Origin: a virus
Direction: 5' to 3' (one strand)
Length of the DNA: 64,000 bases
IMG/VR virus record: IMGVR_UViG_3300045988_176028
Shown one piece after another: positions 18,417 through 54,900 of this stretch (position 1 is its first letter; each line of letters starts with the position of its first letter). The notes under the pieces were generated by a model that did no database searches, had not been told where the DNA came from, and saw nothing but the letters and a program-made list of their open reading frames with translations. A program made the position numbers and the translations under genes.

Positions 18417-18446
18417 GTTCCGGTATACTAATATTCGGATGAACAA

Positions 18447-18505: not shown

Positions 18506-18524
18506 TGGTTTCTCTAAAACACAG

Positions 18525-19394
18525 TTAGGATACGAACGGGTTCATCGGCTCTTCATCGTCTGCCACGCCCGCGTCCGTGTCGGCATCATCGTTAGCCGAC
18601 TGGATGGAAGGGAGACTGGGACGGACTATGACACCGGTTTCCGTGACTTCGACTTTCAATTCCGGCCATGCGAGCTGAATCTTCTCCAACGCTCTCTTGA
18701 ACTTGCGTCTGAATTCACGCATCGGATACCCGTCATACTTGAACTGCATCAACAGGGCTTCCCATGTCACGCGCGTCTCATGGCGCATGGCATGGGCACG
18801 GAACGCGAGCCACTGGTATACGTCCAACGCGAGGGCATCGTTGCGAAGCTGGCGAACGATGGATGGGTTGAGAGGAACGCAGTTCTCCGTCAGCAGTGCC
18901 CACATCTCGGGGGAGAACTTTATGTAAGACTTCTTCGCCCCGTCATCGTCGTAGTTGAGTGACACTATGTTGGCAACGAAGAAAGAGTGGGCTGTGAATC
19001 CGCCAGTGGACCAGTTTTCAAGGACGATGGAGGTTGTCGCTAGATTCCTGACCATGTTCATTACCGTCTCCTTGCTGGACCCTGAATAGTGGATTCCAGT
19101 GCTCTTGCAGAATGAACGATAGGTGTCGTCCAAGTAGACGGTATGATTCTCTGCGTCCACACAGTCGCTACTGTTCTTGATGAGAGAACGGATGTGGATG
19201 AGGAACATTCTGGGGGCTGCTCCGTATGCCCATTCTCCGGTGGAGGCCGAGACTGTGATTGACGAGTTTCCGTTAATTTTTCTCATGGACTGAGATTCCG
19301 GTTTCGACTGCGGCAGGAAACTCAGCTTAGACATAACCGACGGCGTGTAGTTGTATGTATTCGACTTGTAGAGGTCTTTGCTATGATTGGTCAT
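18525..19394 (-). CDS. repA: Plasmid replication initiator (RepA-like, winged-helix type)
   Basis: GAAGGAG RBS. The ALALDVYQWLAFRAH and WEALLMQF segments are typical of RepA-type initiators. Iterons lie about 240 bp upstream of its start. Confidence 0.7.
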   Translation of the reverse strand: MTNHSKDLYKSNTYNYTPSVMSKLSFLPQSKPESQSMRKINGNSSITVSASTGEWAYGAAPRMFLIHIRSLIKNSSDCVDAENHTVYLDDTYRSFCKSTGIHYSGSSKETVMNMVRNLATTSIVLENWSTGGFTAHSFFVANIVSLNYDDDGAKKSYIKFSPEMWALLTENCVPLNPSIVRQLRNDALALDVYQWLAFRAHAMRHETRVTWEALLMQFKYDGYPMREFRRKFKRALEKIQLAWPELKVEVTETGVIVRPSLPSIQSANDDADTDAGVADDEEPMNPFVS

Positions 19395-19700: not shown

Positions 19701-19740
19701 TTTCAACCCGAAACGCCTACTCCCATAAGGGATTTCGACA

Positions 19741-19900
19741 CCTGCAAAAGGTATACAAAAGATTACAAAAGATATTAATATCCCTTGTATTCCCTTCTTT
19801 TTCAAAAAACAAGTTTTTCAAAAAGAAGCAAAAAATCAAAAAATTAGAATAAAACCATTTTTTGATTCTACGTTCAGACAGGGTGAACCCTGAGCAACGA
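19741..19900. other. AT-rich stretch next to the iterons (DNA-unwinding-element-like)
   Basis: Tandem TACAAAAGAT x2 (19754-19773), repeated TTTTTCAAAAA, and an inverted AATCAAAAAAT...ATTTTTTGATT. Very low GC compared with its surroundings. Confidence 0.6.
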
Positions 19901-29018: not shown

Positions 29019-29123
29019 GCGAGAAAACCAGACGGGATAAGACGTTGAAGCTTATCGAGGACGGCGATGACGATGATTGGAAGACTGCCGTATTTATACT
29101 TCCTTCTACTCGCTTGAGTTTTG

Positions 29124-29156
29124 GCCGCTCCTTTTCTGGGAGCGGCTTTTATTTTT
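29124..29156 (+). terminator. Rho-independent terminator
   Basis: GCCGCTCC-TTTTCT-GGGAGCGGC followed by TTTTATTTTT. Confidence 0.8.
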
Positions 29157-29166
29157 CTCATCCAGA

Positions 29167-29188
29167 TGTTATAGTGGAATTGTTCACA
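29167..29188 (+). promoter_or_regulatory. Conserved promoter/leader box, copy 7 (TGTTATAGTGGAATTGTTCACA)
   Basis: Extended -10. Lies 22 nt upstream of the ATG at 29211. Confidence 0.6.
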
Positions 29189-29210
29189 AAAAATGGTTAA
29201 GGAGAAAAAT

Positions 29211-29939
29211 ATGAGCGACAAAAACACCACACCAAAACTTCCCAAGTACAAGAAGACCATCGACGCTACCGGATTCGGACTATCCTGCGTCACCGAATAC
29301 GGGTTCGATGACGCAGGGCTGTTCCACCACTCATACACGTACAACTACAAGAACAGGAAGGCCGTCATCCAAGTGATGGGAAGCCAGCAGCCCGCCGACT
29401 GGCATACCCGCCAAAGCGCCTACGCCTCCTACTATGAGGATGGGAAACAGGTAGGCCGAACCCGTGCCTATAACATTCTTGAAAACGCTCAAATCAAGGC
29501 AGTCCGTTGGATTATGGGCTTCGGCTCGGATAGCAAGGCGGAAGAAGCCTATCGTGCCGTTCGACTGGAGAAAAGCCATCGCAATCAGCAAATCTGCCGT
29601 CGCATCCCCAAACCATTGCGCATGGAAGTCGAGGGGCTTGCAAATAAGCTGGGTTTGAAAATCCACGGCGACGAAGACAACAGCATTGTGGAAACGTTCG
29701 TGAACACGTATCTCGCCACTGCGGAACAGAATGGTCTGATTGAACTGAGAGAACGTCAATACGGTTACGAAAAGTCGATGACCGTATGGCTGGACGGGGA
29801 TGCGAGCCGCAAAACCGAAGACGCCCCCGACTGGGAGAAGTTCAAGGAAACCGTCGTGGAAATCGTCCCACTCTATTTGGAATGTAGACGGAAAACGGCG
29901 GAAAGCGTTGGTCTGGGGGAGAAGCTGGCTGAAAACTAA
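29211..29939 (+). CDS. Hypothetical protein (242 aa)
   Basis: ATG at 29211 with AAGGAG 6 nt upstream. The track start at 29193 lies over the RBS. Confidence 0.6.
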   Translation: MSDKNTTPKLPKYKKTIDATGFGLSCVTEYGFDDAGLFHHSYTYNYKNRKAVIQVMGSQQPADWHTRQSAYASYYEDGKQVGRTRAYNILENAQIKAVRWIMGFGSDSKAEEAYRAVRLEKSHRNQQICRRIPKPLRMEVEGLANKLGLKIHGDEDNSIVETFVNTYLATAEQNGLIELRERQYGYEKSMTVWLDGDASRKTEDAPDWEKFKETVVEIVPLYLECRRKTAESVGLGEKLAEN

Positions 29940-30429
29940 TCCTGATGGTTGGGACAGAAAACTGCTCCAACCATTTTTGTTGCGTTCTCCAATATCTGCC
30001 TATAATCCTCAAGGACACCTACTGTCACGTTTAAGTCCACGGCCATTGGGAAAAGCTCACCCTCATAGATTCGTTCGGATTGGATATATTCGAACGGATT
30101 GATAAGCAGTATCGCCGTCTCCTTACGAACGTATGATTCAGCCTTGTCATCGTATTGTTTCCAGCAACAAGTATCACCGTGAGTCCAATGGAATAGTTCA
30201 TGCGTTAACGTGCATCGTTTCTGCCGCTCGTTCAACCGTGGGTCTATGACGATGATGCGGGTTTCCTCGTCATATACGCCGTATATACGCCGTTGATGTT
30301 TTCCGGAAGTTCCTCCTCGAAAACGTATGGCGCTTGACGTGTGAGTCCTACCATCCGTTTTATCTCTTCATAGCACATTCGCCGGTCGATGGCGACGCTT
30401 CTGTTGTCTACTGGGGGATGTTTCAGCAA
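29936..30429 (-). pseudogene. ImmA/IrrE-type zinc metalloprotease gene split by an 11-bp tandem duplication
   Basis: Two minus-strand ORFs (30429..30244 and 30235..29936). The downstream one carries HELFH (HEXXH). ATATACGCCGT occurs twice in tandem at 30272-30293. Deleting one copy by hand gives a continuous ...INGVYDEETRIIVIDPRLNERQKRCTLTHELFHW... Confidence 0.75.
30272..30293. repeat. Perfect 11-bp tandem duplication (ATATACGCCGT x2)
   Basis: Read directly from the sequence. It causes the frameshift in the ImmA-like gene. Confidence 0.95.
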
Positions 30430-30803
30430 GCGTCCTCGCTTTCCGATTCCGCTTGCTTGTTGGGGTCGTGGTTTGCGGCCAATGTGAGGTCGCCGGAATT
30501 GATTTTACGCAGGACGGCTTGAAGCTGCTGTTCCACAACGGATTGCGTGGAATGGTATCCGTTGTGTCCGGCGATGAGTTCTTCTGGGGTCATGTTCCAT
30601 GCGTGGGCGAGTTTTTCCACGTCGGCGGGGAGCCATTCGACCGTTTCGTTGTATCGTGTGGTGACGTAGCTGGGGCTTTTGCCTAGTTGACGTGCGATGT
30701 CCCGTGCGGAGAGCCGTCGGATTCCGGCTTCCGCTAGGATGCGTTGGTTGATTCTTCTGTTGAATTCGCTGGTTTGGTTTTTTCTTTTTCCCATGTTTTC
30801 CAT
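30423..30803 (-). CDS. XRE-family helix-turn-helix repressor (ImmR-like by context)
   Basis: HTH segment LSARDIARQLGKSPSYVTTRYN. Its stop overlaps the start of the ImmA-like gene by 7 nt. Confidence 0.75.
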   Translation of the reverse strand: MENMGKRKNQTSEFNRRINQRILAEAGIRRLSARDIARQLGKSPSYVTTRYNETVEWLPADVEKLAHAWNMTPEELIAGHNGYHSTQSVVEQQLQAVLRKINSGDLTLAANHDPNKQAESESEDAC

Positions 30804-30841
30804 GATAACTGATTTTTAACATGAAACGCGTGGTTTTAGAT

Positions 30842-30869
30842 TTGACAGCATACTTTTATATGCTATTGT
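30842..30869 (+). promoter_or_regulatory. Promoter-like TTGACA-N16-TATTGT enclosing an inverted repeat (AGCATA-N6-TATGCT)
   Basis: Lies in the divergent XRE / 31116 intergenic region. Read directly from the sequence. Confidence 0.4.
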
Positions 30870-31001
30870 CTGTAATTACGAACACTTGTTCACTCGAAGA
30901 AACAGGAAGTCAATGCATAACATGAGTTACGACAAGGCACGGACGCCCTTGTGGACAGTCAGGTAGACACCTCCAAGAAACCCGTTCCACATACCCCGCC
31001 T

Positions 31002-31071
31002 CAAAATTGGAGGGACACACCCCCAATTTTGTGAATACGCCCAGTATGACTAGAATAAAAAAACGTCCACA
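31002..31071 (+). promoter_or_regulatory. Inverted repeat CAAAATTGGAGGG/CCCCCAATTTTG overlapping the -35, then TAGAAT -10 and GTCCACACAATA leader
   Basis: Inverted repeat at 31002-14 and 31020-31. TAGAAT at 31051-56. GTCCACACAATA at 31065-76 resembles the leader of box copy 2 (GTTCACACAATA) but sits 2 nt further from the -10. Confidence 0.45.
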
Positions 31072-31115
31072 CAATATAAGCCAGACTCCACACAGGCCAG
31101 ACCAAAAGGAATGTT

Positions 31116-32690
31116 TTGAGAAAGACAATAGACCAGAAAATCCTCTTGGATAAACACTTCACAAAATTGGACATCCTAGGCCAGCACCTATGGATGATGC
31201 TCCAACTGCATCCGAAGACCAATGCTCTCGGCGTATGTGATTGGACGTTTGGAAAAATCAACGCTTACACTCACGGAAACACTCCCACCCTATTCCAACA
31301 GGCGGGACGGGAACTCGTAAACGAAGGACTACTGGTCATAGACGAGGACACCGAAGAAGCACTCCTCCTCGACCACATCGACCTCACGGCGGACTCCGGA
31401 ACCATCGAATCCGCATACCTTGGAACCGCCAGCCCAAGACTGCGCAGAATCCTAGTCAGTGAACTGAACCGAACCCTCCGACAGGGAAAGCACTTCCCGT
31501 TCGAATGGGAGGAGATTCATGACATCCTCAGTGAATCGAATGCCGACTCCGACGAATATGAGGAGCCGCATCCAAGCGTGGAACCCGTCGAGGATGATTC
31601 CCTAAACACCTCCCAGACAGATAATTCCACCTCCAAAAAGGAAAAAGAACCCGCCAAGCAGGACGATACCGAAACCTCAAGCGTGAAACCCGTAGAAGCG
31701 GAAGACAAGCCCGTCGGGAAGCGTCGCGGTCGCCCACGCAAGAATCCACTCCCTCCGGAAGGAGAAGACAAACCGAAGCGTCGGCGCGGTCGCCCACGCA
31801 AGTACAAACCCGAACCGGTCGAACTGATGGACGGAACCATGGAGCCTCCGTTCGAGGAGCCGATGACCATGGAACAGGTCGAGGTTCTGCCCCAATACGA
31901 TTCCAACGCTCCAATCGACGTGGATGATGACGGGGAACCCAAGTATTTGCAGTGGGATGAAATCCCGCAACAGCTTTGGTTCTGGCATCCTCTGCCGGAA
32001 GACTGGTCTCCGACCAAGGAAGCCGCCGACTTGTACAAGGAGCTGGGCGGCGGAAGCAAGATGACCATTTTGCAAGCGGCTGACTCGTTCCGTAAGGTCT
32101 ACGATTCACGTTTGTACGTGAAACGTGACAATGGTTTCAAGGCCGCTCCGCTTTCGCCTGACCGACTTTTCATCCAACAGTTGCTTCACTGGCGTAAGGA
32201 GAAGGACGAGGAAAACGAACGCAAAGCCAAGGAAAAAGCCGAGGAGGAAGCTCTCCTCAACGAGGAACCGACAATCGACGTAGACCCCATCTGGGGAAAC
32301 CCCGAAGACTTGGTTTCCGCCAAAGTGGAACAGGAAAACCCCCAACAGGAGGAAGTGACCCCACTGATTCCAGACGAGGAAGTACCGAAAGTCCGCCACT
32401 ATAAGCGGATGGTGCCGAAGGATTGGAAACCGAACCAGAAGCACATCGACCGGGCCAATGAACTGAACATCGACGTGAACACGGAAGCCGAGAAATTCTA
32501 CAACTACAGCCATTCCAATGGCAAGAAATACTTGGACTTCGACCGCGCCTTCGACAATTGGCTCCTCAACGCCGACAAGTTCAACAGGAACAGCCGAAAC
32601 ACACGACGCAAAACCCGTAGCGAGGAAGGATACGAGCACAACATGAACATGCTGAAAGAATCCCTCGCCCAAGCCGGATGGGATGAATGA
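31116..32690 (+). CDS. DNA-binding protein with two AT-hooks and C-terminal DnaD/replisome-organiser-like repeats (putative)
   Basis: KRRGRPRKNP and RRRGRPRKYKP. Acidic linkers. C-terminal ...EAEKFYNYSHSNGKKYLDFDRAFDNWLLNA. Confidence 0.6.
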   Translation: MRKTIDQKILLDKHFTKLDILGQHLWMMLQLHPKTNALGVCDWTFGKINAYTHGNTPTLFQQAGRELVNEGLLVIDEDTEEALLLDHIDLTADSGTIESAYLGTASPRLRRILVSELNRTLRQGKHFPFEWEEIHDILSESNADSDEYEEPHPSVEPVEDDSLNTSQTDNSTSKKEKEPAKQDDTETSSVKPVEAEDKPVGKRRGRPRKNPLPPEGEDKPKRRRGRPRKYKPEPVELMDGTMEPPFEEPMTMEQVEVLPQYDSNAPIDVDDDGEPKYLQWDEIPQQLWFWHPLPEDWSPTKEAADLYKELGGGSKMTILQAADSFRKVYDSRLYVKRDNGFKAAPLSPDRLFIQQLLHWRKEKDEENERKAKEKAEEEALLNEEPTIDVDPIWGNPEDLVSAKVEQENPQQEEVTPLIPDEEVPKVRHYKRMVPKDWKPNQKHIDRANELNIDVNTEAEKFYNYSHSNGKKYLDFDRAFDNWLLNADKFNRNSRNTRRKTRSEEGYEHNMNMLKESLAQAGWDE

Positions 32691-43661: not shown

Positions 43662-46600
43662 ATGGGTAATCCATTGAGTAAAACTTCCCGGAAAGTCAAG
43701 GACTCCATTCTTAAACGGGTGGGGAAGGCCGCTGTCGCACTGGTTGCGGCGACGGCTACCTTGGCTTCTGGAGTGATAACGACCGGTAGTGCGCTTGCCG
43801 CCACGACTGACGGCCCCGGCTACTGGTTCAATGCGACGCGTTCTGGGAGTTGGTGGATTGGTACTCACGGTAGTTCTCTTGGTCCGCAACGTTATGAGAA
43901 CGGTAATCCGGTGTACTGTGTTGAGGCCGGTGAACCTGTTACTAATACCGGTACTTGGAATAAGGCTACGGATGTGAACCATAAGGTTGGTGCGTGGCTG
44001 GTTGAGAAGCATAAGGGTGATAGCAGTGATTTCACTCAGGCTTCGGTTGCTTATGCGATTCATGAGCATCTTGACCAAGGCAGTAGCCATTTCCGTCAGC
44101 TGGTAGCGGCTGGTTTGGAAGGTGCGGATATCAATGCCGTCGCTTCCAATGCGGCGAATCTTTGGAATGATGCATATAACACTCTTCCCGCTAACCTTAA
44201 TGCCGCCTATGCCTATACCTCTGGCAAGCGTACCGGAACTGTTGACCCCGGCGTTAAGAACTCTAGCGGACAGTACATTGCTGGCATTCAGTACACTGCG
44301 ACGTTGAACGGCCCGGCGAAATTCGACCAGACCGGAACCAATACAATCAGTGGTACGACCACCGGTCAGGCAATGCATATTCCGTGGACGGCAACCGGCA
44401 ACGGAAAAGTAACAGGCCATGTTTCGATTAATGTTCCCACTGCCGCCGTTCTAAATTCCCCCGGTCAGGATATGATGCGGCCTTCCGACCCTGAGAATCA
44501 GACTGCTGATGTTCAGTTCTCTGTGTCGCGTGATTTTCAGCCGACCGTCAGTACCAGAGTCAGCAAGAAACAGTTGACCCGTGGCTCCCCGGTCGAAGAC
44601 CGTGTGACCTCCGGTGTCGCCTCCTCCGACGACGAGTGGGCGGACAACGTGCCCGTCAAATTCAAGGGCTACTATTTCGTCGGTGACTCCAAGCACATCC
44701 TCCAAGTCATCAAGAAGAACAATGGTGAGAATCCGACCGACTATTTGAAGCGCCTGCGTGAAACCGATGGCATCCGTCAGGTTGCCGCAGCAACCACCCG
44801 CTTCATCAAGAGCGGTCAGACCAACACCGTCAAGGCGAAGGCCGCTACCGGTGGCATCGACTATGACAGTGTGAACGGTTTGGACGATTATCAGGTGTCC
44901 GATGAGGACGCCGGACTGTTCGGAACATGGGTTTGGGTTGAAGTCAAGTCAGACCAGTCCCAGCAGGATTACATCAAAGGCGATTACATCGATGAGTTCG
45001 GTAAAACTCAGGAAACGTCCGTGAGTGTTCTGCCGCCGAACCACGACTCCACCGTGTTGGAGCAGGAGTCCGGCATGAACAAGGACATCCTTGATGAAAT
45101 CAACATCAGCCGTCTGCCGTCCGACTACGGTAAGTTCACCGGTGATACGAACTATGGTTTCAACGCTGACGCGAAGGCCAAGATTCGTGTCTGGTGGGCT
45201 GGCTCCGGAACCGGCAACAAGGATGAGGACGAAAAGTACGTCCCGACCACCGAAGAGGAGCCTACTCAGGATGCCAACCACAAGCTGGTTGGCGAATGGG
45301 AAGTTCCGGCCATGAACGGCAAGTACAAGGTCGGCGGCGGTAAAATCGTTCTCTATCCGAGCGATGGTAGCGACGCCAAGACCGTTGCCACTGATGTGAA
45401 CATCAAGGTCACGGATAAGGCCCATTGCGGCTACTACGTGTTCATCTACGACTTCCCCGGCTCCGACCGTGCGGAAGGATTCAAGAGCGCGTACAACAAT
45501 CCGTGGGAACGTTCCTTCGTCACTCAGGACGCGCAACCCGTCACATTGACCACCAACGTGAACAAGACCACCGTCACCCAAGGTGAGAAGTTCTACGATA
45601 CCGCGACCATCTCCGGTCTGGTTCCGCGTGGCTCCTATGTCACCTTCACCGCGTATGACGCCGTGTCCGGCGAGCCGGACGTGTCCACCAACAAGCTGTT
45701 GGACAACACTCGCGTGAACGTCACCAACGACCAAGCCGACCATTCCGACACCACCCAGTTCGAGGTGAAGTCCCCGGAAATCAGCACCAACAAGATTGGT
45801 AAGGTCTACTGGGTTGCGAAACTCTACAATGCCAAAGGAAAGGCTCTCGCGGGTCACGCCATCGGCTTGGAGAACGAGACCATCGAAGTGGTAGGCCCGT
45901 CCCTCACCACCAAGACCAGCGCACAGCAGACCTATGTCGGTCGTCCGTTCCACGACACCGCCGTCATCAACAACAAGATTGACGCGGGAGCCTATCTGAC
46001 ATTCACCGCCTATGACGCGGTTTCCGGCAAGCCGGATACGAATGCCGCGAAACTGCTTGACAACAAGCGTGTGGACATTCCAGCCGACAAGATTGCATCC
46101 TCCGGCGCCGGTAAGAGCTTCACCGTTGACTCCCCGGACGTGACCGCCACCAAGGCCGGTATCGTCTACTGGAAGGCGACGCTCTACAACAAGGGCGGAA
46201 TGGAACTCGCCACCCACGAGCTGGGTGCCACCGGCGAAAGCGTTCTCATCAAAAACCCGTCCATCACCACCAAGGTCAGCAAGGAACAGGTCTCCATCAA
46301 CGAGGAGTTCACCGATACCGCCACCATCAACGGTGAAATCGAATCCGGCGATTACGTCACCTTCGACGCCTACGCTCCGGTTGACGGCGCTCCGAACGCC
46401 CAAGGTGCCAAACTGCTCGACTCCGAGCGTGTGAACATTCCGGCCAAGGATGTCACCGCAAGCCAGAACGGACAGGCCATCAACGTCACCAGCCCGAAGA
46501 CCCACGCCACCGAAGGCGGAAACGTGTATTGGAAGGCCACCCTGCACCGTGCCAACGGCACTGTGCTCGCCACCCATGATTTGGGTGTTGGCGGTGAGAC

Positions 46601-49600
46601 CGTTCAGGTCAAGTATCCGACCATCACCACGCACGTGTCCTCCACGAGCGTCGGTGTCGGAGAGGACTTCTACGACACCGCCGACATCAAGGGTGTCGTC
46701 CACGCGGGTGACTTCGTGGTGTTCCGCGCCTACGATGCGGTCGGTGAGAAGCCTGACACAAACGCCAGCCTTCTGCTGAAAGACCAGAAGGTCAACATCA
46801 CTGCGGCTCAGGCGAAGGATTCCGCTCAGGACAAGACCGTGACCGTCAAGTCCAAGACCGTCAACACCATGAACGGTGGAAACGTGTATTGGAAGGCAAC
46901 CCTGTACGACAAGCAGGGACGCCAGCTTGCCACCCACGACCTTGGACTTCCGGAAGAAACCGTCACGGTTCGTCCTCCGACCATCACCACCCAAGTGACC
47001 AAGGGCAAGGTCAAGCCGAGCGAGGAGTTCGCTGATAAGGCGACCATCTCCGGTAAGGTGCTCAAAGGTTCCTACGTCACGTTCACCGCTTACGACGCGG
47101 TATCCGGCGACCCGGATGCCAATGCTCCTAAGCTGTTGGACAACGTGCGTGTGAACATCAAGGACTCCGATGCGGAAGCTTCCGCGTCCAAGAAGTTCAC
47201 CGTCACCAGCCCTACCACCCACACCGATAACTCCGGTTCCGTGTACTGGGTTGCGACTCTGTGGTCTCCGCAAGGCAAGCAGTTGGCTTCCCACGATTTG
47301 GGTCTGCCGTCCGAAACCGTTCAGGTGAATCCGGGTGGTATCGTCACGTCCAACGCGCAGAAGATGGGTGCGACCGGCGAGCAACTGTACGATGAAATCA
47401 CCGTTTACGATGAGACCAGTGAGGCCGAGTCCGCTGATGGTCAGGTTCACGAGGGTGAAGGCAACAGCAATCCGACCGGCGTCATCGGTCGTATTCCGCA
47501 AGGCTCCACCGTCACCGTGGAAATGTACCGTCAGGCCGAAGAGGATGACGGCGACCAAGGCTTGTTCAAGATTGCCGAGAAGACCGTCACCATCGACACC
47601 AACAAGTTCACCGCAATCAAGGCCGGTCAGGAAGGCAACCGTCCGGGCAAGCTGACTTTCAAGGTCACTGACCCGAGCTTCAAGACCACCAAGGCTGGCA
47701 TGATTTACTGGAAGGCCACGTTGAAGACCCCGCAGGGCGGCGTGCTCGACCAGCATATCTACGGTGAAAAGGGTTCCGACCACAAGACCGGTTACAAGAG
47801 TTACGAACGCACCCCGGTGCAGAAGTTCTCCACCACCGTGTCCAAGAAGTGGCTGAGCGACGCGAACGGCAATTACGAGGACAAGACCACGCAAATCTAC
47901 GACGTGCTCCACCAGACCTCGTATGAGCAGTTCGACGGCGAATCCATCGACGGAGACACCTACACCACCGGCAAGACCGCCCAAACACCGAACGGTGCCA
48001 AAGTCCAGTTTGAAATCTGGGCCAAGGACGGCGCGAACGCTGGCAAGATGGTCAAGCAGTACAATGCCGAAGACCTCCCGAAGGTTCGTGAACTCGCCAA
48101 GAGCGAAGACCCGGACAAGAACCATCCGTATGTGGGTACCGATGGTCTGGACAACTACCAGAACGTCAAATCCTCCACGTTCCCGATTCCGTCCGACTGG
48201 TCTGCGAACAAGTACTACTACCGTGTGAAGATTACCGTCCCGTCCACCACTCCGGGCGCTGGAACCGACCCTGCCGACAACAATCGTGATGTTGTCTGGT
48301 ATGGCGACGATGACGAGTCCGAAGAGTTCGACGTGATTCACATGGACACCAAGAGCACCGAACCGTTGTGGCTCGACAGCATGAACGTGTCCGACGAAAT
48401 CACGTTGAAGGGCAACATTCCGGCTGGCTCCCAGTACGAGGCCGAATTGTGGCGCACAAGCAAGGATGGCAACGTCCGTAAGGACGCGGCCACCAAGCAG
48501 GATGATTCCGACCATAATGGCATCGCCTCCGAAAAGGTCGCCACCACCGGTCGCGTAAACATTCCGTCCAAGGCCATCGGCGCCCACCTCAATGGTGTCA
48601 CCTTCCGCTCCAAGAGCGTGAAGAATCCGGGTGTCGGCTCCTACATCTGGCGTGTGAAGATTTACACTCCGGAAATGCCTCACAAGGATGGCAACGGCGT
48701 GGGCACTGGTGGAGACACCAGCATGAACTCCGCATTCGGTGTCATCACCAAGGAGTGGATGACCGCCGCCAAGGCCACCACCGACGCCGATGACTCCCAA
48801 GCCGGTGACTACTGGCAGAACGCCACCGCCAAGCAGAAGGGCAATGGCGACGGTTACGCCGACCGTTGGCTCCTGTTCGACGGCAAGAACATCGCATCCG
48901 AGAAGTTCGAGGTCGTGAAGCTGACCACGAACGTGACCGGAACCCCGAACATCCACACCAGCGAAGGCGAGCATTACGTCGATGTCACCAACGGCAACGA
49001 TGTGAACGATAAGCTCACCATCACCGGTTATATGCTCAAGGACTACAAGGTCGCGTTCAAGCTGTACAAGCAAGCCGAGAATCAGACCGCCGACAAGGAC
49101 ACCGTCGTCAAGACCCTTGACCCGGTTGCCCTGACCGAAGCCCAGAAGACCCTCGACTCCGCTTCCGTACATCTGACTGACCCCGCCGACTACTACTGGC
49201 AGTGGGTGTTCACCAAGCCGGACGGCACCGCCTTCCAGCCTGACAACATCAACCCGGCAGTCTCCGATAAGCGCATCAAGGACGAGTCCTTCCACGCCGT
49301 CCGCGTGACCACCAGCACCTACAAGTGGGCTTCCAAGAACGGTACCGTTCAGGATGTCGCACGACTCGAAGGCCACCTGCCTGAGAACGCGACGCTCACC
49401 TTCGAGATGCATGATTACGCAACCGGCAAGAAGGTCGCCTCCACCAAGTCCGCCACCCTCAAGGAACTGGGCTTCGACAAGTCCAGCATCGACCAGCAGT
49501 TGACCAGCCCGAGCCTCAAGGTTCCGGACGCAATCGACTACTACTGGGTTGAGGTTCTGAACCTGCCGAAGGATGACCAGAACACTCCGTTGCACACCGG

Positions 49601-51764
49601 CAAGGACAAGGTCAAGAACGAGTCCTTCCGTTCCATCGAAGCGCAGACCGATATCGCCACCGAACGTTATGTGGGCACCGTGGTCAAAGACCATGCCGAC
49701 CTGACCAACGTGAAGTGGAAGCAGTCCGGCGACATCCGCGACGATTTGGCCCAAGGATTGGACGCACGCTGGTTCCTGTACAAGCAGGGCGACGGCGATG
49801 TGAAGACCGATAAGAAGATTTTCACCGGCGACTACGTACATCTGGCCAGCGGACAGACCGAAGCCTACGGCCCCGAACACAAGATGGACGAGGTGGGCGA
49901 CTACTACTGGGTCATCGAAATCAGCGACCCGAGCACGAATCACAAGGTTGTCAAGCTGGGAACCCAGCGCGACCCGCGTGAATCGTTCCGCATCGTAAAG
50001 GCTTCCTCCGAAGCTCAGGTGGCACAGCAGGTCAACAAGCCCACCAAGGACACCGTGACCATCACCGGACATCCGGCAGAAGGCACTCTGGTCTCTTGGA
50101 ACCTGTACAAGACCAATACTGCCGACGACGACGATTATCTGATTGACAAGACTGAGCAGCAGCAGGGCGAGAGCGAAGGCTCCGACGATACTGACGCCGA
50201 TGCCGAACCTCAATCCGATAACGGCGAAGCCTCCGACAGCATGCTCGTCGCAAGCTATCAGACCCCGGCTGATGGTGCTCACCTCATCACCGCCGAGGAA
50301 GCCGCCGAAGCGTTGAAGAACGGCAAGGTGACAGTGGAAAGCCCCGAGTATACTCCGACCGAGGTTGGCGAATACTACTGGGTGTTCAGTCTGACCAGTC
50401 CGACGAAGAACCTCGCCGGTGACGGACAGCCGAACAAGCCGCAGAACGATAAGGACACCAGCCATCTGGAGTCCGAGGACTTCTTCACCGACCGCGCCCA
50501 TGTGGCCGATGAGACCGTCCAGATTATCGACGCGACCACCAAGACCAAGCCGCTGGGACACGTCGGGGAGAAGTTCCATGACACCGTGCTCCTGCAAGGA
50601 CGCGTGCCGGAAGGCTCTCAGGCGGACGCCACCCTCTACCGTCAGGTGGACGGCGACGATTCCAGCAAGGATGAGGAGGTTCTGACCACGAAGCGCACCA
50701 CGCTCTCCGAAGGTCAGGCGTTCGCGGACTTGGAGGATGTGACCGTTGACAAGGTTGGCGTGTACTACTGGCGTGAGCACGTGTACGTGCCGACCAAGCA
50801 CACCACCACCGCAGACCACGACAAGAAGGTGGAAGTCGAGAAGACCCCGACCATCACCGGAAAGCCTCGCGTGAGCAACGAGACCGTCAGCGTGGTCAAC
50901 GTGACCACCACCACCCACCGTCTGGAAGAATCCGGCATCAAACTTCAGGACAAGGCGAAGATTGAAGGCAACGTCGTTGACGGCTCCTACATCATCTTCA
51001 CCCTGTGGAAGCAGTCCGATGGCGACGACTCCAGCAAGGACGAGAAGGTGTTCACCAGCGACAAGGTGATGCTCAAGGCCGGTCAGAAGGAAGCCGACTC
51101 CCCGACCTACGAGGTCAAGGAGACCGGAACCTACTACTGGCGTGAAAGCATCTACAATCCGGTCGAGGACACCGACATTCCGCCGTGCGTCCCGCCGACC
51201 GGAAACACCGACGAAGACCATCCGTGCGACACTCCGGTTCATACCGAGAAGCCGCGCACGCCGGGTGAAACCACCGACGTGGTGAAGGTCGCGACCAAGG
51301 CCCAGAGTAACGGCACCGCCACCAAGCCGGTCAAGGATACCGCCCTCATCGAAGGCAAGATTCCGAACGACGACTACGAGCTGGTGTTCGAACTGTGGAA
51401 GCAGAACGGCAACGATGTGAAGGACGACCAGAAGGTCGCCACCACCGACGCCGTGAACGTCCCGCAGAACGCGACCACGGTCGATTCGCCGGAAGTCACC
51501 CCGTCCGACGCTGGAACCTACTACTGGCGTGAGAAGCTGGTGGAGAAGTCCACCAAGCGGCTCGTCCACTACGGTGAGGCCCGTGTTCCGGGCGAGACCG
51601 TAATCGTGGGCGAACTCGCCAAGACCGGTATCGCAAGCGGCTTCATCATTCCGCTCATCGGAATGCTTGCAGTGCTTGGACTGGGATTGGCGGTCGTTTC
51701 CGAAGGAAAGCGTCGCATCGCTTCCCTCTCGAACGGCGCTCATCTGTCCGGCTCCACGAAGTGA
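43662..51764 (+). CDS. Giant LAxTG-anchored adhesin (2700 aa) with N-terminal thioester-domain-like motifs and about 15 Ig-like modules
   Basis: GGAG RBS and a signal peptide. VYCVEAG (Cys codon 43917-19) and FTQASVAYAI (Gln codon 44037-39). Repeated ...YYW/VYWKATL... modules. C-terminal LAKTG, a TM and KRR. Confidence 0.85.
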   Translation: MGNPLSKTSRKVKDSILKRVGKAAVALVAATATLASGVITTGSALAATTDGPGYWFNATRSGSWWIGTHGSSLGPQRYENGNPVYCVEAGEPVTNTGTWNKATDVNHKVGAWLVEKHKGDSSDFTQASVAYAIHEHLDQGSSHFRQLVAAGLEGADINAVASNAANLWNDAYNTLPANLNAAYAYTSGKRTGTVDPGVKNSSGQYIAGIQYTATLNGPAKFDQTGTNTISGTTTGQAMHIPWTATGNGKVTGHVSINVPTAAVLNSPGQDMMRPSDPENQTADVQFSVSRDFQPTVSTRVSKKQLTRGSPVEDRVTSGVASSDDEWADNVPVKFKGYYFVGDSKHILQVIKKNNGENPTDYLKRLRETDGIRQVAAATTRFIKSGQTNTVKAKAATGGIDYDSVNGLDDYQVSDEDAGLFGTWVWVEVKSDQSQQDYIKGDYIDEFGKTQETSVSVLPPNHDSTVLEQESGMNKDILDEINISRLPSDYGKFTGDTNYGFNADAKAKIRVWWAGSGTGNKDEDEKYVPTTEEEPTQDANHKLVGEWEVPAMNGKYKVGGGKIVLYPSDGSDAKTVATDVNIKVTDKAHCGYYVFIYDFPGSDRAEGFKSAYNNPWERSFVTQDAQPVTLTTNVNKTTVTQGEKFYDTATISGLVPRGSYVTFTAYDAVSGEPDVSTNKLLDNTRVNVTNDQADHSDTTQFEVKSPEISTNKIGKVYWVAKLYNAKGKALAGHAIGLENETIEVVGPSLTTKTSAQQTYVGRPFHDTAVINNKIDAGAYLTFTAYDAVSGKPDTNAAKLLDNKRVDIPADKIASSGAGKSFTVDSPDVTATKAGIVYWKATLYNKGGMELATHELGATGESVLIKNPSITTKVSKEQVSINEEFTDTATINGEIESGDYVTFDAYAPVDGAPNAQGAKLLDSERVNIPAKDVTASQNGQAINVTSPKTHATEGGNVYWKATLHRANGTVLATHDLGVGGETVQVKYPTITTHVSSTSVGVGEDFYDTADIKGVVHAGDFVVFRAYDAVGEKPDTNASLLLKDQKVNITAAQAKDSAQDKTVTVKSKTVNTMNGGNVYWKATLYDKQGRQLATHDLGLPEETVTVRPPTITTQVTKGKVKPSEEFADKATISGKVLKGSYVTFTAYDAVSGDPDANAPKLLDNVRVNIKDSDAEASASKKFTVTSPTTHTDNSGSVYWVATLWSPQGKQLASHDLGLPSETVQVNPGGIVTSNAQKMGATGEQLYDEITVYDETSEAESADGQVHEGEGNSNPTGVIGRIPQGSTVTVEMYRQAEEDDGDQGLFKIAEKTVTIDTNKFTAIKAGQEGNRPGKLTFKVTDPSFKTTKAGMIYWKATLKTPQGGVLDQHIYGEKGSDHKTGYKSYERTPVQKFSTTVSKKWLSDANGNYEDKTTQIYDVLHQTSYEQFDGESIDGDTYTTGKTAQTPNGAKVQFEIWAKDGANAGKMVKQYNAEDLPKVRELAKSEDPDKNHPYVGTDGLDNYQNVKSSTFPIPSDWSANKYYYRVKITVPSTTPGAGTDPADNNRDVVWYGDDDESEEFDVIHMDTKSTEPLWLDSMNVSDEITLKGNIPAGSQYEAELWRTSKDGNVRKDAATKQDDSDHNGIASEKVATTGRVNIPSKAIGAHLNGVTFRSKSVKNPGVGSYIWRVKIYTPEMPHKDGNGVGTGGDTSMNSAFGVITKEWMTAAKATTDADDSQAGDYWQNATAKQKGNGDGYADRWLLFDGKNIASEKFEVVKLTTNVTGTPNIHTSEGEHYVDVTNGNDVNDKLTITGYMLKDYKVAFKLYKQAENQTADKDTVVKTLDPVALTEAQKTLDSASVHLTDPADYYWQWVFTKPDGTAFQPDNINPAVSDKRIKDESFHAVRVTTSTYKWASKNGTVQDVARLEGHLPENATLTFEMHDYATGKKVASTKSATLKELGFDKSSIDQQLTSPSLKVPDAIDYYWVEVLNLPKDDQNTPLHTGKDKVKNESFRSIEAQTDIATERYVGTVVKDHADLTNVKWKQSGDIRDDLAQGLDARWFLYKQGDGDVKTDKKIFTGDYVHLASGQTEAYGPEHKMDEVGDYYWVIEISDPSTNHKVVKLGTQRDPRESFRIVKASSEAQVAQQVNKPTKDTVTITGHPAEGTLVSWNLYKTNTADDDDYLIDKTEQQQGESEGSDDTDADAEPQSDNGEASDSMLVASYQTPADGAHLITAEEAAEALKNGKVTVESPEYTPTEVGEYYWVFSLTSPTKNLAGDGQPNKPQNDKDTSHLESEDFFTDRAHVADETVQIIDATTKTKPLGHVGEKFHDTVLLQGRVPEGSQADATLYRQVDGDDSSKDEEVLTTKRTTLSEGQAFADLEDVTVDKVGVYYWREHVYVPTKHTTTADHDKKVEVEKTPTITGKPRVSNETVSVVNVTTTTHRLEESGIKLQDKAKIEGNVVDGSYIIFTLWKQSDGDDSSKDEKVFTSDKVMLKAGQKEADSPTYEVKETGTYYWRESIYNPVEDTDIPPCVPPTGNTDEDHPCDTPVHTEKPRTPGETTDVVKVATKAQSNGTATKPVKDTALIEGKIPNDDYELVFELWKQNGNDVKDDQKVATTDAVNVPQNATTVDSPEVTPSDAGTYYWREKLVEKSTKRLVHYGEARVPGETVIVGELAKTGIASGFIIPLIGMLAVLGLGLAVVSEGKRRIASLSNGAHLSGSTK
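45537..47322 (+). repeat. Five tandem modules of about 119 aa (about 357 bp) inside the giant adhesin
   Basis: Each module runs ...(I/L)TT.V....V....F.DTA.I.G......Y(V/L)TF.AYDAV.G.PD....LLD...V.I........VYW(K/V)ATL....G..LA.H.LG...E(T/S)V.V. Confidence 0.85.
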
Positions 51765-51816
51765 CGGACTGAACCGGTAGGGGAGGGCCGATAGGGTTCC
51801 TTCCCTACACCGCCTA

Positions 51817-51866
51817 GTTTGGGGAGGTGGGAGAGCATGACTCCCCGCCTCCCCAAACTTTTCTTT
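51817..51866 (+). terminator. Rho-independent terminator
   Basis: GTTTGGGGAGGTGGGA...TCCCCGCCTCCCCAAAC followed by TTTTCTTT. Confidence 0.75.
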
Positions 51867-51909
51867 GAAGGTCTTTAACATAGAAAGAAAAAATACGGAA
51901 AGAGGATAC

Positions 51910-54900
51910 ATGCGTAAACCTATCGCCCTGCTTGCGGCAGGTTCGATGATGCTCATGCCGCTATTGGGGGCAACGAGTGTCGTGCTGACACCCGTATCGG
52001 AGGCTTATGCCGAAACCGCCGATAGCACCGCAAGCGACTATCCGGAAGGTGTCACAGCCTATCTGGACGGTACACGGCTAGCGAGCTTCGACCCCTCCGG
52101 AAACGGAGTATATGACGCGACGGGACAAACTGTGGAACTGTCCGGTGTGCCCGACGATTGGACGGTGCAATGGAGAAGCATGGTCAATGGAATCACCAAC
52201 AAGGATTCCATCATGTACATCCTGTCCAACGGTTCCACCACCTATCGTTACTGGTTCGATGGGGCTGACGGCGCGGTTCATACCGTCGAAGAGCTTCACG
52301 GCATGACAATCACTTTGAACGGTCAGGCTGTGGACGGCGACATCACCAAGGGATTCACCATCCACAACGTGACCGCCAGCGACATGAAGGGATATGAGAA
52401 CACCCCATACGGTTGGGTGCTCGACGGTGATTCCGAAGACGACCACTACACGTACACCGCCCATCCAGAGGATTCGGACACGCCAAGCGTCCAATACACG
52501 TTCATGTATGACGACACCCGACCCCACGACAGCATCAATTCGTTGAGGAACCTGAAAGCGTATCTGACCGTTGACGGCAGCGCCGTGAAAGGATTCGACT
52601 ACACGCTCGCCAACACCGACACCATCGCCATTCCAATGAACACCGACGTGCGTCTGGAAGGCGTACCGGACGGCTGGAAAGTTGACTACAACAATCCTTC
52701 CACCGGGAAACTGAACCGCGTATACACGCTGACCGGCCCCTGTGGGGACACGTTCACCTACATCTTCCATCCGACTTCGGATTACAAAGGATACTATTAC
52801 ATCGACCAGCTCCAATACGTCCGGGCATTCGCTGACGGGGAACTGGTTGACGGATTCGACTACAAGGGAGGCGCATGGAGTTTCCCTGAAACCACCAAGA
52901 ACGTCGAAATCGCAAACGTACCAGACGACTGGAACACTCAACGTACCGTTAATGGCAACATCATCACCTACGTGGTATCCAGTCCGAACAATTCCGTCTC
53001 TGTCACCTACGTGTTCAACATCGCCAAACATCAGGCAAGTCTGGACGAACTGGCGAATGTGAAAGCCATCGTAGGCGGCAACTATGTTTCCGGATTCAAC
53101 CCGAAACAGTCCGGTATCTACGAATACGAAGACGGTCAAGGAATCGCCATCGTCAACGTGCCGTCCGGATGGACTCAGACCACAACCGACGGTGACGGAT
53201 ATAAGGTGTATACGTTGACCAGTGGAGACCTTTCGGTGTCCTACCGTTTCAACAAGCATGTGAAAACCTATTCGGTGGACGAGCTTGCCAAAGTGTCAGC
53301 TTCTACCGACGACGGCGTGGTTCAGGATTTTAAGCCGATGGAGTCCGGCACCTACACCATTGGAGAGCACGCTACCGTGTGGATTACCGGCGTGCCCGAC
53401 GGTTGGGATACCAAATCGTCCGACAATGATATGACCTACACGGTGACTAGTCCCGACGGGAAAATCAAAGTCGTCTACACGTTCAAACATGCGAAGCACC
53501 AGTATTCCGCTTCCGAATTGAAGAACGTCACCGCAAAACTCCCCAACGGAGACTACCTCAACGGCTTCGACCCGGTCTCCGGTGGTGAATTCACCGTACC
53601 GATGGGAACCAAGAACGTGACCATCGGTCATATTCCGAACGGGTGGAACCTCACCAAGAACAATGGACTGTCCTACACGCTAACCAGCAATGATGGGGAA
53701 GTGTCCGTCTCCTATAAGTTCCATGCGAAGAACGGCCATACGGTAGTCTTCGACACTGATGGAGGAACCACTGTCGAATCCCAAACCGTCGAGGATGGGG
53801 GAACTATCACACCACCCGACGACTATCCGTCCAAGACCGGCTACCGTTTTAAAGGCTGGTATAAGGATGGTGTCCCATACGATTTCACACAACCCGTCTA
53901 TGATGATGCGGTAATCACAGCCAAGTGGACGGTAAACACTTACGAAGTGTATTTCGACGCCGGAGCCAGTGACGACTGGTATCCTATGCAGACCATCGCA
54001 TATGGCGATAAGGTCGTCAAGCCGGTTGACCCGACTTTGGACGGTTACGATTTCGCCGGATGGCTGTTGGATGGCAAAGTGTACTCGTTCGACACTCCTG
54101 TCACCGCCGACATGACCTTGACCGCGTCTTGGAAGACCGCGCAGGTGAAGACGCATACGGTAACTTTCACCGGTGCGGGAGACGATTTCATCCAAACCGT
54201 GGCGGATGGTTCCTCGGCCACTGTTCCAACGGTTCCTTCCAAGAAAGGCTACACGTTCGACGGATGGTATTCCGGAGACTCCCTGTACGATTTCACCACG
54301 CCCGTTACGGATGATTTGACTGTGGAAGCCCATTGGACGAAGAACACGTACACGGTCAGCTTCGACTCCAATGGCGGAAGCGACGTGGACTCCCAGCAGG
54401 TGGAATACAAGGATACGGTGTCCCAGCCGGACAATCCGACATTGGACGGTTATACATTCCAAGGTTGGACTCTTGACGGCGACCCGTATGACTTCAACAC
54501 TCCAGTCACCTCCAGCATCACGTTGAAGGCACTATGGTCTAAGAACACGCCAGTAGCCAAAAAACATACGGTCACATTCGACAGTAGCGAGGGAAGCAAG
54601 GTCGATAGCCAAACCGTCAAGGAAGGCGACCCCGTGTCCAAGCCTGACAATCCAACCCGTGAAGGATACACGTTCAACGGTTGGCTGTTGGGCGGAGACC
54701 CGTATGATTTCACCACTCCCGTCATGCAGGATTTGACGTTGACGGCCTCTTGGACGAAGAACAAGAGCACGTACACCGTGAAGTTCGATTTGAATGGGGG
54801 AGATGGCAATATCGCAGACCAGAAGGTCAAGGAAGGCTCCACCATCGACCGTCCGGCCAATCCGACCCGTGAAGGATACACGTTCATGGGATGGCAGTAT

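What the first reader, a model, noticed from the sequence alone, without database searches (positions are those of the whole stretch)
29936..30429. ImmA/IrrE-type anti-repressor protease inactivated by a perfect 11-bp tandem duplication
On the minus strand an XRE repressor gene (30803..30423) overlaps the start of a gene that now reads as two ORFs. ATATACGCCGT is present twice in tandem at 30272-30293. Removing one copy by hand restores a single frame, ...ENINGVYDEETRIIVIDPRLNERQKRCTLTHELFHWTHGD..., a typical ImmA/IrrE zinc-metalloprotease layout with HEXXH.

In ICEBs1-type systems ImmA cleaves the ImmR repressor to induce the element, so this lesion would lock the repressor on. Because the lesion is a clean duplication, it can revert precisely by slippage or recombination. 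That makes it a potential on/off switch rather than simple decay.
Basis: partly seen in the sequence, partly recalled or inferred. Interest (0 to 1): 0.65.

Follow-up and report, generated by a model that had tools for sequence, protein, structure and literature searches.

The report
Frameshifted ImmA protease gene on Bifidobacterium megaplasmid
A gene for a repressor-cutting protease on a large gut-bacterial plasmid has been broken by a very recent 11-base duplication; this is an ordinary one-off knock-out mutation, and nothing suggests a designed on/off switch.

Summary
ATATACGCCGT occurs twice in tandem at 30272-30293. It splits a minus-strand gene into a 61-aa and a 99-aa ORF, and removing one copy gives a 160-aa protein with HELFH. 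That protein passes Pfam Peptidase_M78 (ImmA/IrrE) and matches only IrrE in the PDB.

About 30 near-identical contigs from other samples carry a single copy. The only duplicated one is the window's own contig (JGI 3300053491 Ga0557493_057133, 221 kb). Across 20 kb this contig has no private SNPs against its five closest relatives. It differs only by this insertion and a 1-nt change in an intergenic poly-A run, so the lesion is very recent or, less likely, an assembly error.

The gene is under strong purifying selection in the family (dN/dS about 0.1).

The element is not an ICE. It is a roughly 220-kb Bifidobacterium megaplasmid with RepA, three 22-bp iterons and ParA, distantly related to pMP7017, which has the same XRE-ImmA island.

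The lesion probably leaves the intact XRE repressor uncleavable. That step is inferred.

The "reversible switch" idea has no support. The wild type has one copy and no flanking microhomology, and the allele does not recur. Three other, unrelated frameshifts of this gene exist elsewhere, which looks like sporadic decay.

The parts
30272..30293 (.). Perfect tandem duplication, 2 x ATATACGCCGT (minus strand ACGGCGTATAT x2). One copy (11 bp) is an insertion relative to all relatives.
   Evidence: Single copy in 29 related loci.
29936..30429 (-). immA pseudogene (ImmA/IrrE, Peptidase_M78). It would encode 160 aa if one repeat copy were removed.
   Evidence: Repaired product: PF06114 25.1 bits (cutoff 22), DUF6782 27.9 bits (cutoff 27), phrog_87 metallo-protease 5.7e-17. 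99% identical to intact P0001. PDB profile hits are IrrE only.
30244..30429 (-). 5' fragment ORF. The TTG start overlaps the xre stop by 7 nt. It has 49 native residues, then 12 out-of-frame residues, then a stop.
29936..30271 (-). 3' part of immA in the original frame (D50 to the stop). It carries the HEXXH motif (H73-E74-L-F-H77) and conserved Glu residues E94 and E100. The only in-frame restart is a TTG at 30235, with no Shine-Dalgarno sequence visible upstream.
30423..30803 (-). Intact xre-type HTH gene (126 aa), the presumed repressor and ImmA substrate.
   Evidence: Weak HTH hits (HTH_24, HTH_26) and phrog_4 transcriptional repressor 2.8e-5. The exact protein is on record on 636 contigs. 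dN/dS is 0.15-0.19. It is homologous in its HTH and C-terminal tail to the gene upstream of immA in pMP7017.
30804..31115 (.). Divergent intergenic control region. Two blocks are conserved across subfamilies, each with a promoter-like site on the + strand (30842-30869 TTGACA/TATTGT; 31029-31056 TTGTGA/TAGAAT). There is an inverted repeat at 31002-31031.
   Evidence: The promoter and operator roles are inferred.
31116..32690 (+). First gene of the divergently transcribed + strand gene array (524 aa). Its N-terminal part resembles phage replication-initiation proteins. It is the presumed target of XRE repression.
   Evidence: phrog_3171 7.8e-15 and phrog_8064 1.5e-12. The regulatory link is inferred from arrangement only.

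Best explanation
A private, very recent 11-bp tandem duplication has frameshifted immA. immA is the ImmA/IrrE-type (M78) zinc-metalloprotease gene of an XRE-ImmA regulatory pair carried by a roughly 221-kb Bifidobacterium-associated megaplasmid.

The insertion falls between the codons for Y49 and D50, inside the invariant N-G-V-Y-D-E strand just upstream of the HEXXH helix. Translation therefore ends after 12 wrong residues, and the catalytic part is not made. This is a null allele.

By analogy with ImmR/ImmA (ICEBs1, prophages) and DdrO/IrrE, the protease normally inactivates the adjacent XRE repressor in response to a stress signal. That derepresses the divergent operon starting at 31116. 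With immA dead and xre intact, this copy of the plasmid is predicted to be non-inducible through that route.

The lesion is an ordinary sporadic loss-of-function mutation, not a programmed device.

Shown here: the lesion, its polarity (an insertion relative to all relatives), the family assignment, the module architecture, purifying selection on intact alleles, and the plasmid nature of the element.

Inferred: repressor cleavage, the identity of the regulated operon, and the phenotype.
For: - The lesion and the repaired frame are confirmed.
- There is a single copy in 29 related loci from other contigs or samples, and the duplication occurs only in L050/L058, which are 100% identical to the window and so are its own contig.
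- Across 20.4 kb the window has no private SNP against its five nearest relatives. It differs only by this insertion and an A6/A7 run.
- Pfam M78 is above its cutoff, PHROG metallo-protease scores 5.7e-17, and IrrE structures are the only PDB hits, aligned across NGVYDEE...HELFHW.
- H73, E74 and H77, plus G47 and Y49 at the insertion site, are invariant in 13 homologues. N46, D50 and E51 are also invariant in the 11 closer homologues.
- immA dN/dS is 0.08-0.11 and xre 0.15-0.19 against the 72-78% subfamily.
- All 35 IMG/VR loci have uninterrupted immA.
- The xre-immA pair with its 7-nt overlap, standing alone on the minus strand against a + strand gene array, is conserved. The same island exists in pMP7017.
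- immA disruption lowers prophage activation in an ImmAR-regulated pneumococcal phage (PMC12637031).
- Plasmid replicon: RepA_C, 3 x 22-bp iterons and ParA. The nearest records are pMP7017-type megaplasmids.
Against: - No read-level data are available, so an assembly artefact cannot be excluded.
- Repressor cleavage, operator binding and the inducing signal are untested for this family.
- The XRE protein has only weak HTH profile hits.
- The structure model of the repaired protein was poor (pLDDT 49), so the fold is not confirmed.
- XRE-COG2856 pairs have also been proposed as toxin-antitoxin-like modules, which fits a plasmid context.
Confidence: 0.7

Rival explanations
1. Assembly or sequencing artefact. 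The extra 11 bp is not present in the DNA, and the plasmid has an intact immA.
For: - The allele is a singleton, seen only in the window's own contig.
- The JGI and IMG/VR collection scans found only single-copy sequences.
- The contig is otherwise identical to its relatives.
Against: - A perfect 11-bp non-homopolymer tandem insertion is not a typical error of short- or long-read platforms. This rests on my own knowledge.
- In 20 kb the contig shows only one other indel, in a homopolymer, so it is not a generally error-prone assembly.
- The same JGI data set resolves three separate 219-221-kb copies of the plasmid, which argues for high-resolution data.
Confidence: 0.12
2. Reversible switch. 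The duplication toggles immA OFF and ON by slippage, giving a population-level bet-hedging control of plasmid induction.
For: - A perfect tandem repeat can be deleted precisely by slippage.
- The duplicated allele forms a hairpin absent from the wild type (minus-strand ssDNA -7.3 vs -1.6 kcal/mol, z = -3.8), which could favour misalignment.
- Single-copy versions of the plasmid are present in the same JGI data set (L052, L057).
Against: - The wild type has one copy and no microhomology at the junctions, so the OFF direction is not favoured.
- The allele does not recur: 1 of about 30 near-identical loci, and that one is the window itself.
- None of about 65 family loci shows any other repeat-number variant here.
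- The other null alleles are unrelated 1-bp deletions.
- The co-occurring single-copy contigs differ by further SNPs and indels, so they are not simple revertants.
Confidence: 0.05
3. The XRE-M78 pair is a toxin-antitoxin-like addiction or defence module rather than an induction switch, and the lesion simply inactivates the toxin or effector.
For: - The gene order (HTH first, then M78, with overlapping stop and start) and the plasmid location fit type II TA layouts. XRE-COG2856 pairs have been predicted as TA-like, which I state from my own knowledge.
Against: - No PADLOC defence-model hit was found.
- The pair sits alone and divergent from a long gene array, across a 312-bp region with two conserved promoter-like blocks. 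This is the layout of immunity regions.
- Characterised members of the family (ImmA, IrrE) are anti-repressor proteases (PMC12637031).
Confidence: 0.1
4. Adaptive loss. immA knock-outs are repeatedly selected because a non-inducible megaplasmid costs the host less (domestication).
For: - Four independent inactivating lesions occur in the family: this duplication; a 1-bp deletion in the HELFH codon in two NCBI assemblies (L006, P0031); a 1-bp deletion shared by two ENA samples (L062, L063); and a 1-bp deletion in an A5 run with xre also damaged (L064).
- Frameshifts and domestication are discussed for pMP7017 relatives (PMC10832533).
Against: - Null alleles are rare against hundreds of intact sequences (clusters of 545 and 338 members).
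- dN/dS of about 0.1 shows the gene is normally kept.
- No comparison with the lesion rate of other plasmid genes was made.
Confidence: 0.1

Closest known systems
ImmR/ImmA of Bacillus subtilis ICEBs1 and ImmAR modules of Gram-positive prophages
   Same: An XRE-type HTH gene is immediately followed by an overlapping M78/HEXXH protease gene. The pair is divergent from the genes it is presumed to control. Disruption of immA reduces induction (PMC12637031).
   Different: There is no adjacent integrase, and the element carries a plasmid replicon. Sequence similarity to the family is at profile level only. Cleavage and signal are untested. In this copy the protease gene is frameshifted.
IrrE(PprI)/DdrO of Deinococcus (PDB 3dte, 8slm)
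   Same: These are the only solved structures hit by the family profile. The alignment covers the strand and HEXXH helix (DGAYDPE...QRFTLAHEISH against NGVYDEE...QKRCTLTHELFH).
   Different: IrrE is about 290-300 aa with extra HTH and GAF-like domains, and it is chromosomal. This protein is 160 aa. The E-values are weak (0.0035 and 0.018).
ImmA/IrrE locus of Bifidobacterium megaplasmid pMP7017 (NZ_KM406416.1, WP_244296520.1) and B. longum relatives
   Same: The island architecture is the same: an HTH gene followed by ImmA/IrrE, opposite to the flanking genes. ImmA is 43-45% identical, the XRE HTH is 37% identical with a shared C-terminal tail motif, and RepA is 35-38% identical.
   Different: It is a different plasmid family. 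There is no megablast match, and the 524-aa gene has no tblastn match in PLSDB. The size is about 220 kb rather than 169-198 kb. Identities are far below the 70% backbone criterion used for pMP7017 relatives (PMC10832533).
Contingency loci (simple-sequence-repeat phase variation)
   Same: A repeat-copy change shifts the reading frame of a regulatory gene.
   Different: There are only two copies of an 11-nt unit, and the ancestral state is one copy. There is no tract and no recurrence across lineages.

Membership tests
Peptidase M78 / ImmA-IrrE (PF06114, COG2856) | Profile match above the curated threshold | tested here: met
   The repaired 160-aa product scores PF06114 25.1 bits (cutoff 22) and DUF6782 27.9 bits (cutoff 27). 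phrog_87 metallo-protease scores 5.7e-17.
Peptidase M78 / ImmA-IrrE (PF06114, COG2856) | HEXXH zinc-binding and catalytic motif | tested here: met
   H73-E74-L-F-H77 is invariant in 13 homologues down to 43% identity.
Peptidase M78 / ImmA-IrrE (PF06114, COG2856) | Third zinc ligand (Glu in the helix after HEXXH) and a zincin-like fold | tested here: inconclusive
   E94 is invariant and E100 nearly so. The AF2 model was poor (pLDDT 49), so no fold search was run. Its secondary structure (strands 47-50 and 55-58, helices 64-79 and 91-104) is compatible.
Peptidase M78 / ImmA-IrrE (PF06114, COG2856) | Intact open reading frame in this window | tested here: not met
   The 11-bp insertion causes a frameshift after codon 49. 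The gene is a member of the family but is a pseudogene here.
ImmR/ImmA-type anti-repressor module | Co-directional, adjacent XRE-type HTH repressor gene upstream of the protease gene | tested here: met
   xre runs 30803..30423 and overlaps the immA start by 7 nt. The pair is conserved in all loci of the >=72% subfamily checked.
ImmR/ImmA-type anti-repressor module | Divergent from the operon it regulates, with operators in the intergenic region | tested here: inconclusive
   The arrangement is met, and there are two conserved promoter-like blocks. No conserved operator repeat was identified, and binding was not tested.
ImmR/ImmA-type anti-repressor module | Site-specific cleavage of the repressor by the protease upon a stress or quorum signal | not testable with these tools
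   This needs biochemistry or genetics.
ICEBs1-type integrative conjugative element | Integrase next to immR-immA; an integrated element with att sites | tested here: not met
   The genes flanking the module have no family hit (29193-29939, no Pfam hit) or only a phage replication-initiation PHROG hit (31116-32690). No recombinase appears among the families listed for 49 window ORFs, although those lists are capped at 25 families. The window has RepA_C, iterons and ParA. Related contigs cluster at 213-228 kb, and in an NCBI assembly the element is a separate 228-kb contig.
pMP7017-family Bifidobacterium megaplasmids | Backbone proteins at >=70% identity and coverage to pMP7017 (criterion of PMC10832533) | tested here: not met
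   RepA is 35-38% and ImmA 43-45% identical. There is no megablast match. It is a distant relative, not a member.
Phase-variable contingency locus | Repeat tract present in the ancestral state, with ON and OFF alleles recurring in independent lineages | tested here: not met
   There is one copy in 29 relatives, and the duplication occurs only in the window's own contig.

The most novel reading that the evidence does not exclude
immA of this widespread Bifidobacterium megaplasmid family is a recurrent target of knock-out, by at least four independent lesions. In the window's case the knock-out is precisely revertible. Hosts or plasmids would then toggle or lose stress-inducibility of a large plasmid operon as an adaptive strategy.
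Probability: 0.07. Interest if true: 0.5.

Novelty: new member of a known kind. Interest (0 to 1): 0.2.

Why it matters
As a lesion it matters little. It is a fresh loss-of-function mutation in a well-known type of anti-repressor gene, seen in one metagenomic contig.

It has practical use. This natural immA-null plasmid has siblings that are nearly isogenic over the 20 kb compared (2-4 SNPs plus 1-2 small indels, with immA intact). The pair would make a ready-made experiment for finding out what the XRE-ImmA module controls on Bifidobacterium megaplasmids, which is unknown even for pMP7017.

The wider context may be of more interest than the finding. The plasmid family is about 220 kb and common in gut metagenomes: the exact XRE protein is on more than 600 contigs. 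It is absent from PLSDB, and I found no paper describing it.

Tried and rejected
- Megablast of 29000-33000 and 1-25000 against the INPHARED phages and PLSDB found nothing. One call failed on query length.
- tblastn of the 524-aa gene against PLSDB found nothing.
- The genome-contig scan with P0001 gave only an irrelevant 29-residue match in a rumen Eubacterium MAG, so the host could not be read from GTDB representatives. The host was inferred instead from RefSeq names of an XRE cluster member (WP_217736084.1, Bifidobacterium) and from pMP7017-type relatives.
- The AF2 model of the repaired protein was too poor to use (pLDDT 49), so no fold search was run.
- PADLOC gave no hit for XRE, ImmA or their neighbours.
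- PHROG "tail" and "virion" hits raised the possibility of a phage, and IMG/VR lists related contigs as viral. All those hits map to the NlpC/P60 domain of 62668-63423. No capsid, portal or terminase was found in the window.
- P0012 looked like a fifth frameshift allele. It is a contig-end or mosaic case and was dropped.
- The palindrome AGCATA-N6-TATGCT inside promoter P1 was considered as an operator. Its left arm is not conserved in L015 and L016.
- Programmed ribosomal frameshifting across the insertion was considered. There is no slippery site, and all relatives lack the insertion.
- A transposon-excision footprint (an 11-bp target duplication) was considered. There is no supporting evidence, and the IS200/IS605 elements seen in relatives make no target duplications (my own knowledge).
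- Literature searches for this plasmid family and for ImmA on bifidobacterial plasmids found nothing specific.

Full report
**Observation**

On the + strand, ATATACGCCGT is present twice, head to tail, at 30272-30293. The 11-mer occurs nowhere else in the window, and the repeat does not extend by a single base on either side.

On the minus strand a 126-aa gene with weak helix-turn-helix and repressor hits (30803..30423) is followed by two ORFs:
- ORF-N runs 30429..30244 from a TTG start that overlaps the upstream stop codon by 7 nt. It has 61 aa.
- ORF-C runs 30235..29936. It has 99 aa and contains HELFH.

ORF-N has 49 native residues followed by 12 out-of-frame ones.

A perfect 11+11 tandem is expected about 0.017 times per window, and appeared in 4 of 300 simulated windows. 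Chance is therefore unlikely but not absurd. The comparative data settle it.

**The lesion is an insertion, and it is private and recent**

The repaired protein is 99% identical over its full length to P0001, an intact 160-aa protein representing a cluster of 545 sequences.

DNA from contigs carrying intact alleles has exactly one copy of the 11-mer and is otherwise nearly identical (2 SNPs in 940 bp for L001 and L002).

A regular-expression census over all fetched loci found one copy in 29 loci from other contigs or samples and two copies in a single contig. The single-copy loci are L001-L004, L006-L011, L042-L049, L051 and the 20-kb loci L052-L057 and L059-L061, several of which re-sample the same contigs. 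Scans of IMG/VR and of the JGI metagenome collection with a pattern that accepts either allele returned only single-copy matches.

The duplicated contig is JGI 3300053491 Ga0557493_057133 (221,031 bp). Its 20,381-bp stretch (L058) is 100% identical to window 20423-40803, so it is the window's own source.

L044, from another sample, differs from the window over 2.8 kb by nothing but the 11-bp indel.

Across 20.4 kb, aligned with its five nearest relatives (99.8-99.9% identical), the window has no private SNP. Its only departures are this insertion and an A6/A7 difference, shared with L053, beside a terminator-like hairpin near 35829.

The event is therefore extremely young or an assembly error. 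It is not part of a general decay of this contig.

**What the gene is**

- The repaired product passes Pfam Peptidase_M78 (IrrE N-terminal-like; 25.1 bits, cutoff 22) and DUF6782, and matches PHROG 87 "metallo-protease" at 5.7e-17.
- A profile of 13 homologues hits only IrrE structures in the PDB (8slm at 0.0035, 3dte at 0.018). The alignment covers NGVYDEETRIIVID...QKRCTLTHELFHW.
- H73, E74, H77 and E94 are invariant. So are G47 and Y49, which flank the insertion point. N46, D50 and E51 are invariant in the 11 closer homologues.
- The insertion therefore sits in the conserved strand just before the catalytic helix, and the HEXXH part is out of frame.
- The 99-aa ORF-C would lack that strand, and I see no ribosome-binding site before its TTG. 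I regard the allele as null.
- The AlphaFold model was too poor (pLDDT 49) to test the fold.

**The gene matters to the element**

- All 35 related IMG/VR loci (42-99% identical) have an uninterrupted gene.
- Against the 72-78% subfamily, dN/dS is 0.08-0.11 for immA and 0.15-0.19 for xre.
- The xre-immA pair with its 7-nt overlap is conserved.
- The pair is the only minus-strand unit in a long + strand array. Upstream genes converge on the immA stop.
- A 312-bp intergenic region separates xre from a 524-aa gene at 31116 whose N-terminal part resembles phage replication initiators.
- Within that region, two blocks are strongly conserved across subfamilies while the rest has diverged. Each holds a + strand promoter-like site: 30842-30869 and 31029-31056. 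I could not define a conserved operator repeat.

**What the element is**

It is not an ICE of the ICEBs1 type. I identified no integrase gene. The flanking genes have no recombinase hit, and none appears in the capped family lists for 49 window ORFs. The window contains:
- a RepA_C replication gene (19394..18525, minus strand);
- three perfect 22-bp repeats 240 nt upstream of it (19635-19699);
- ParA genes (17145-17930 and 6028-7242);
- an SSB;
- an NlpC/P60 hydrolase;
- giant Flg_new-repeat surface proteins.

The PHROG "tail" hits all fall on the NlpC/P60 domain.

Contigs carrying the exact XRE protein number more than 600. Of the roughly 950 collection blocks holding it, 34-36 have a longest contig of 0.2-1 Mb. 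All the long contigs actually read are 213-262 kb, and most are 213-228 kb. In an NCBI assembly the element is a separate 228-kb contig. A cluster member of the XRE protein is a RefSeq "MULTISPECIES [Bifidobacterium]" protein.

In PLSDB the nearest records are pMP7017 of B. breve and the B. longum megaplasmids. RepA is 35-38% identical and ImmA/IrrE 43-45% identical. pMP7017 has the same island: an HTH gene followed by ImmA/IrrE, opposite to its neighbours. Its HTH protein shares both the HTH and a C-terminal tail motif with the window's XRE.

There is no nucleotide-level match. This is a distinct, distantly related megaplasmid family.

**Mechanism**

The best-supported reading, by analogy with characterised family members, runs in four steps. 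All four are inferred.
1. XRE represses the divergent operon.
2. ImmA inactivates XRE upon a stress signal. ImmA cleaving ImmR in ICEBs1 is my own knowledge. For IrrE/DdrO, and for immA disruption reducing activation of an ImmAR-regulated pneumococcal prophage, see PMC12637031.
3. With immA null and xre identical to the consensus, this plasmid copy should be non-inducible by that route.
4. Because the plasmid has its own RepA, iterons and ParA, maintenance need not depend on the regulated operon.

**The switch idea**

A two-copy perfect tandem repeat can be lost precisely by slippage. The duplicated allele also creates a hairpin absent from the wild type (-7.3 vs -1.6 kcal/mol on the minus strand). 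Reversion is therefore possible.

A switch needs both directions to be favoured and both alleles to recur, and neither holds:
- The ancestral sequence has one copy and no microhomology at the junctions. The base before the unit is A and the unit ends in T; the unit starts with A and the next base is G.
- The allele is a singleton.
- Single-copy plasmids in the same JGI data set (L052, L057) differ by additional SNPs and indels, so they are separate lineages rather than revertants.

A speculative origin consistent with zero microhomology is a fold-back template switch. The nascent ...ACGCCGT pairs on itself, copies ATAT and then realigns at the upstream ATAT. This is inference only.

**Other broken alleles**

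Three further independent lesions were verified at the DNA level:
- a 1-bp deletion in the HELFH codon in NCBI GCA_039754515.1, with a near-identical fused product in a second 228-kb NCBI contig (L006, P0031);
- a 1-bp deletion (CATCAAT to CATAAT) shared by contigs from two ENA samples (L062, L063);
- a 1-bp deletion in an A5 run, with xre also damaged (L064).

These are few against hundreds of intact sequences. With dN/dS near 0.1, I read them as sporadic decay. A proper census could test for adaptive loss.

**Verdict**

The gene identity and inactivating lesion are supported. The functional consequence is plausible but inferred. The ICE framing should be replaced by a megaplasmid, and the switch is unsupported. 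This is an ordinary, recent pseudogenisation, or possibly an artefact, of a known kind of gene in a new member of a known kind of element.

Noticed in passing
window 17145-19775 (whole window belongs to JGI 3300053491 Ga0557493_057133, 221,031 bp): There is a plasmid replicon here: RepA_C gene 19394..18525 (-), three perfect 22-bp repeats (AAAGTGGGCACTTTCGACACGG) at 19635-19699, an AT-rich 10-bp repeat at 19745-19775, and ParA 17145-17930 followed by a 151-aa ORF. The element is a roughly 220-kb Bifidobacterium-associated megaplasmid only distantly related to pMP7017 (RepA 35-38% aa identity). It is absent from PLSDB by megablast but common in gut metagenomes: the exact XRE protein is on more than 600 contigs, and all the longest contigs read are 213-262 kb. 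I found no paper describing it.
   Followed up: partly
L006 10001-10780; L062/L063 1501-1821; L064 648-1112: Three other independent frameshifts of the same immA gene occur in related plasmids: a 1-bp deletion in the HELFH codon in NCBI assembly GCA_039754515.1 (a near-identical fused product, P0031, is on a second 228-kb NCBI contig); a 1-bp C deletion shared by two ENA samples; and a 1-bp deletion in an A5 run with the xre start and frame also damaged.
   Followed up: yes
window 1949-2941: An AAA ATPase matches the anti-phage IetA/IteA models strongly (PADLOC IetA 5.5e-62; NCBIfam IteA_antiphage 5.5e-51). The expected partner protease gene (IetS) was not looked for.
   Followed up: no
window 43662-57555: Two giant + strand genes are present: 2700 aa with no Pfam hit, and 1896 aa with 17 Listeria-Bacteroides (Flg_new) repeats. 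A 2335-aa open frame (44949..51956) runs antisense to the 2700-aa gene and is probably a by-product of its composition.
   Followed up: no
window 31743-31802 (gene 31116-32690): The 524-aa replication-initiator-like gene varies in length among near-identical plasmids (497, 504, 523, 524 and 544 aa). L057 has a 60-bp in-frame deletion here. The region encodes repeated GRPRK (AT-hook-like) motifs.
   Followed up: no
window ~35829 and ~27972: Homopolymer length differs among near-identical plasmids: A6 vs A7 next to a terminator-like hairpin (AATCCCGCC...GGCGGGATT), and T6 vs T7 in L052. Gene calls for the adjacent gene differ (175, 197 or 206 aa).
   Followed up: partly
window 29936-30803 vs L012-L017: Between subfamilies, immA is far more diverged at synonymous sites (dS 1.5-2.3) than the overlapping xre gene (dS 0.4-0.7). 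This suggests a recombination breakpoint or mosaicism inside the module.
   Followed up: no
L054 13484-15096; L055 19500-20381; L001 6418-6636: IS200/IS605-type Y1 transposase and TnpB (OrfB_IS605) genes are inserted at different places in related plasmids. A 72-aa TnpB-remnant-like ORF lies near the adhesin gene in some of them.
   Followed up: no
window 30423-30803 vs L067 5333-5887: The XRE proteins of this plasmid and of pMP7017 share a C-terminal tail motif (LRKINSGDLTLAANHDPNKQAE vs LEKLRRGDMSLAAHKDPYKREE) besides the HTH. This is a candidate protease-recognition or oligomerisation segment.
   Followed up: no
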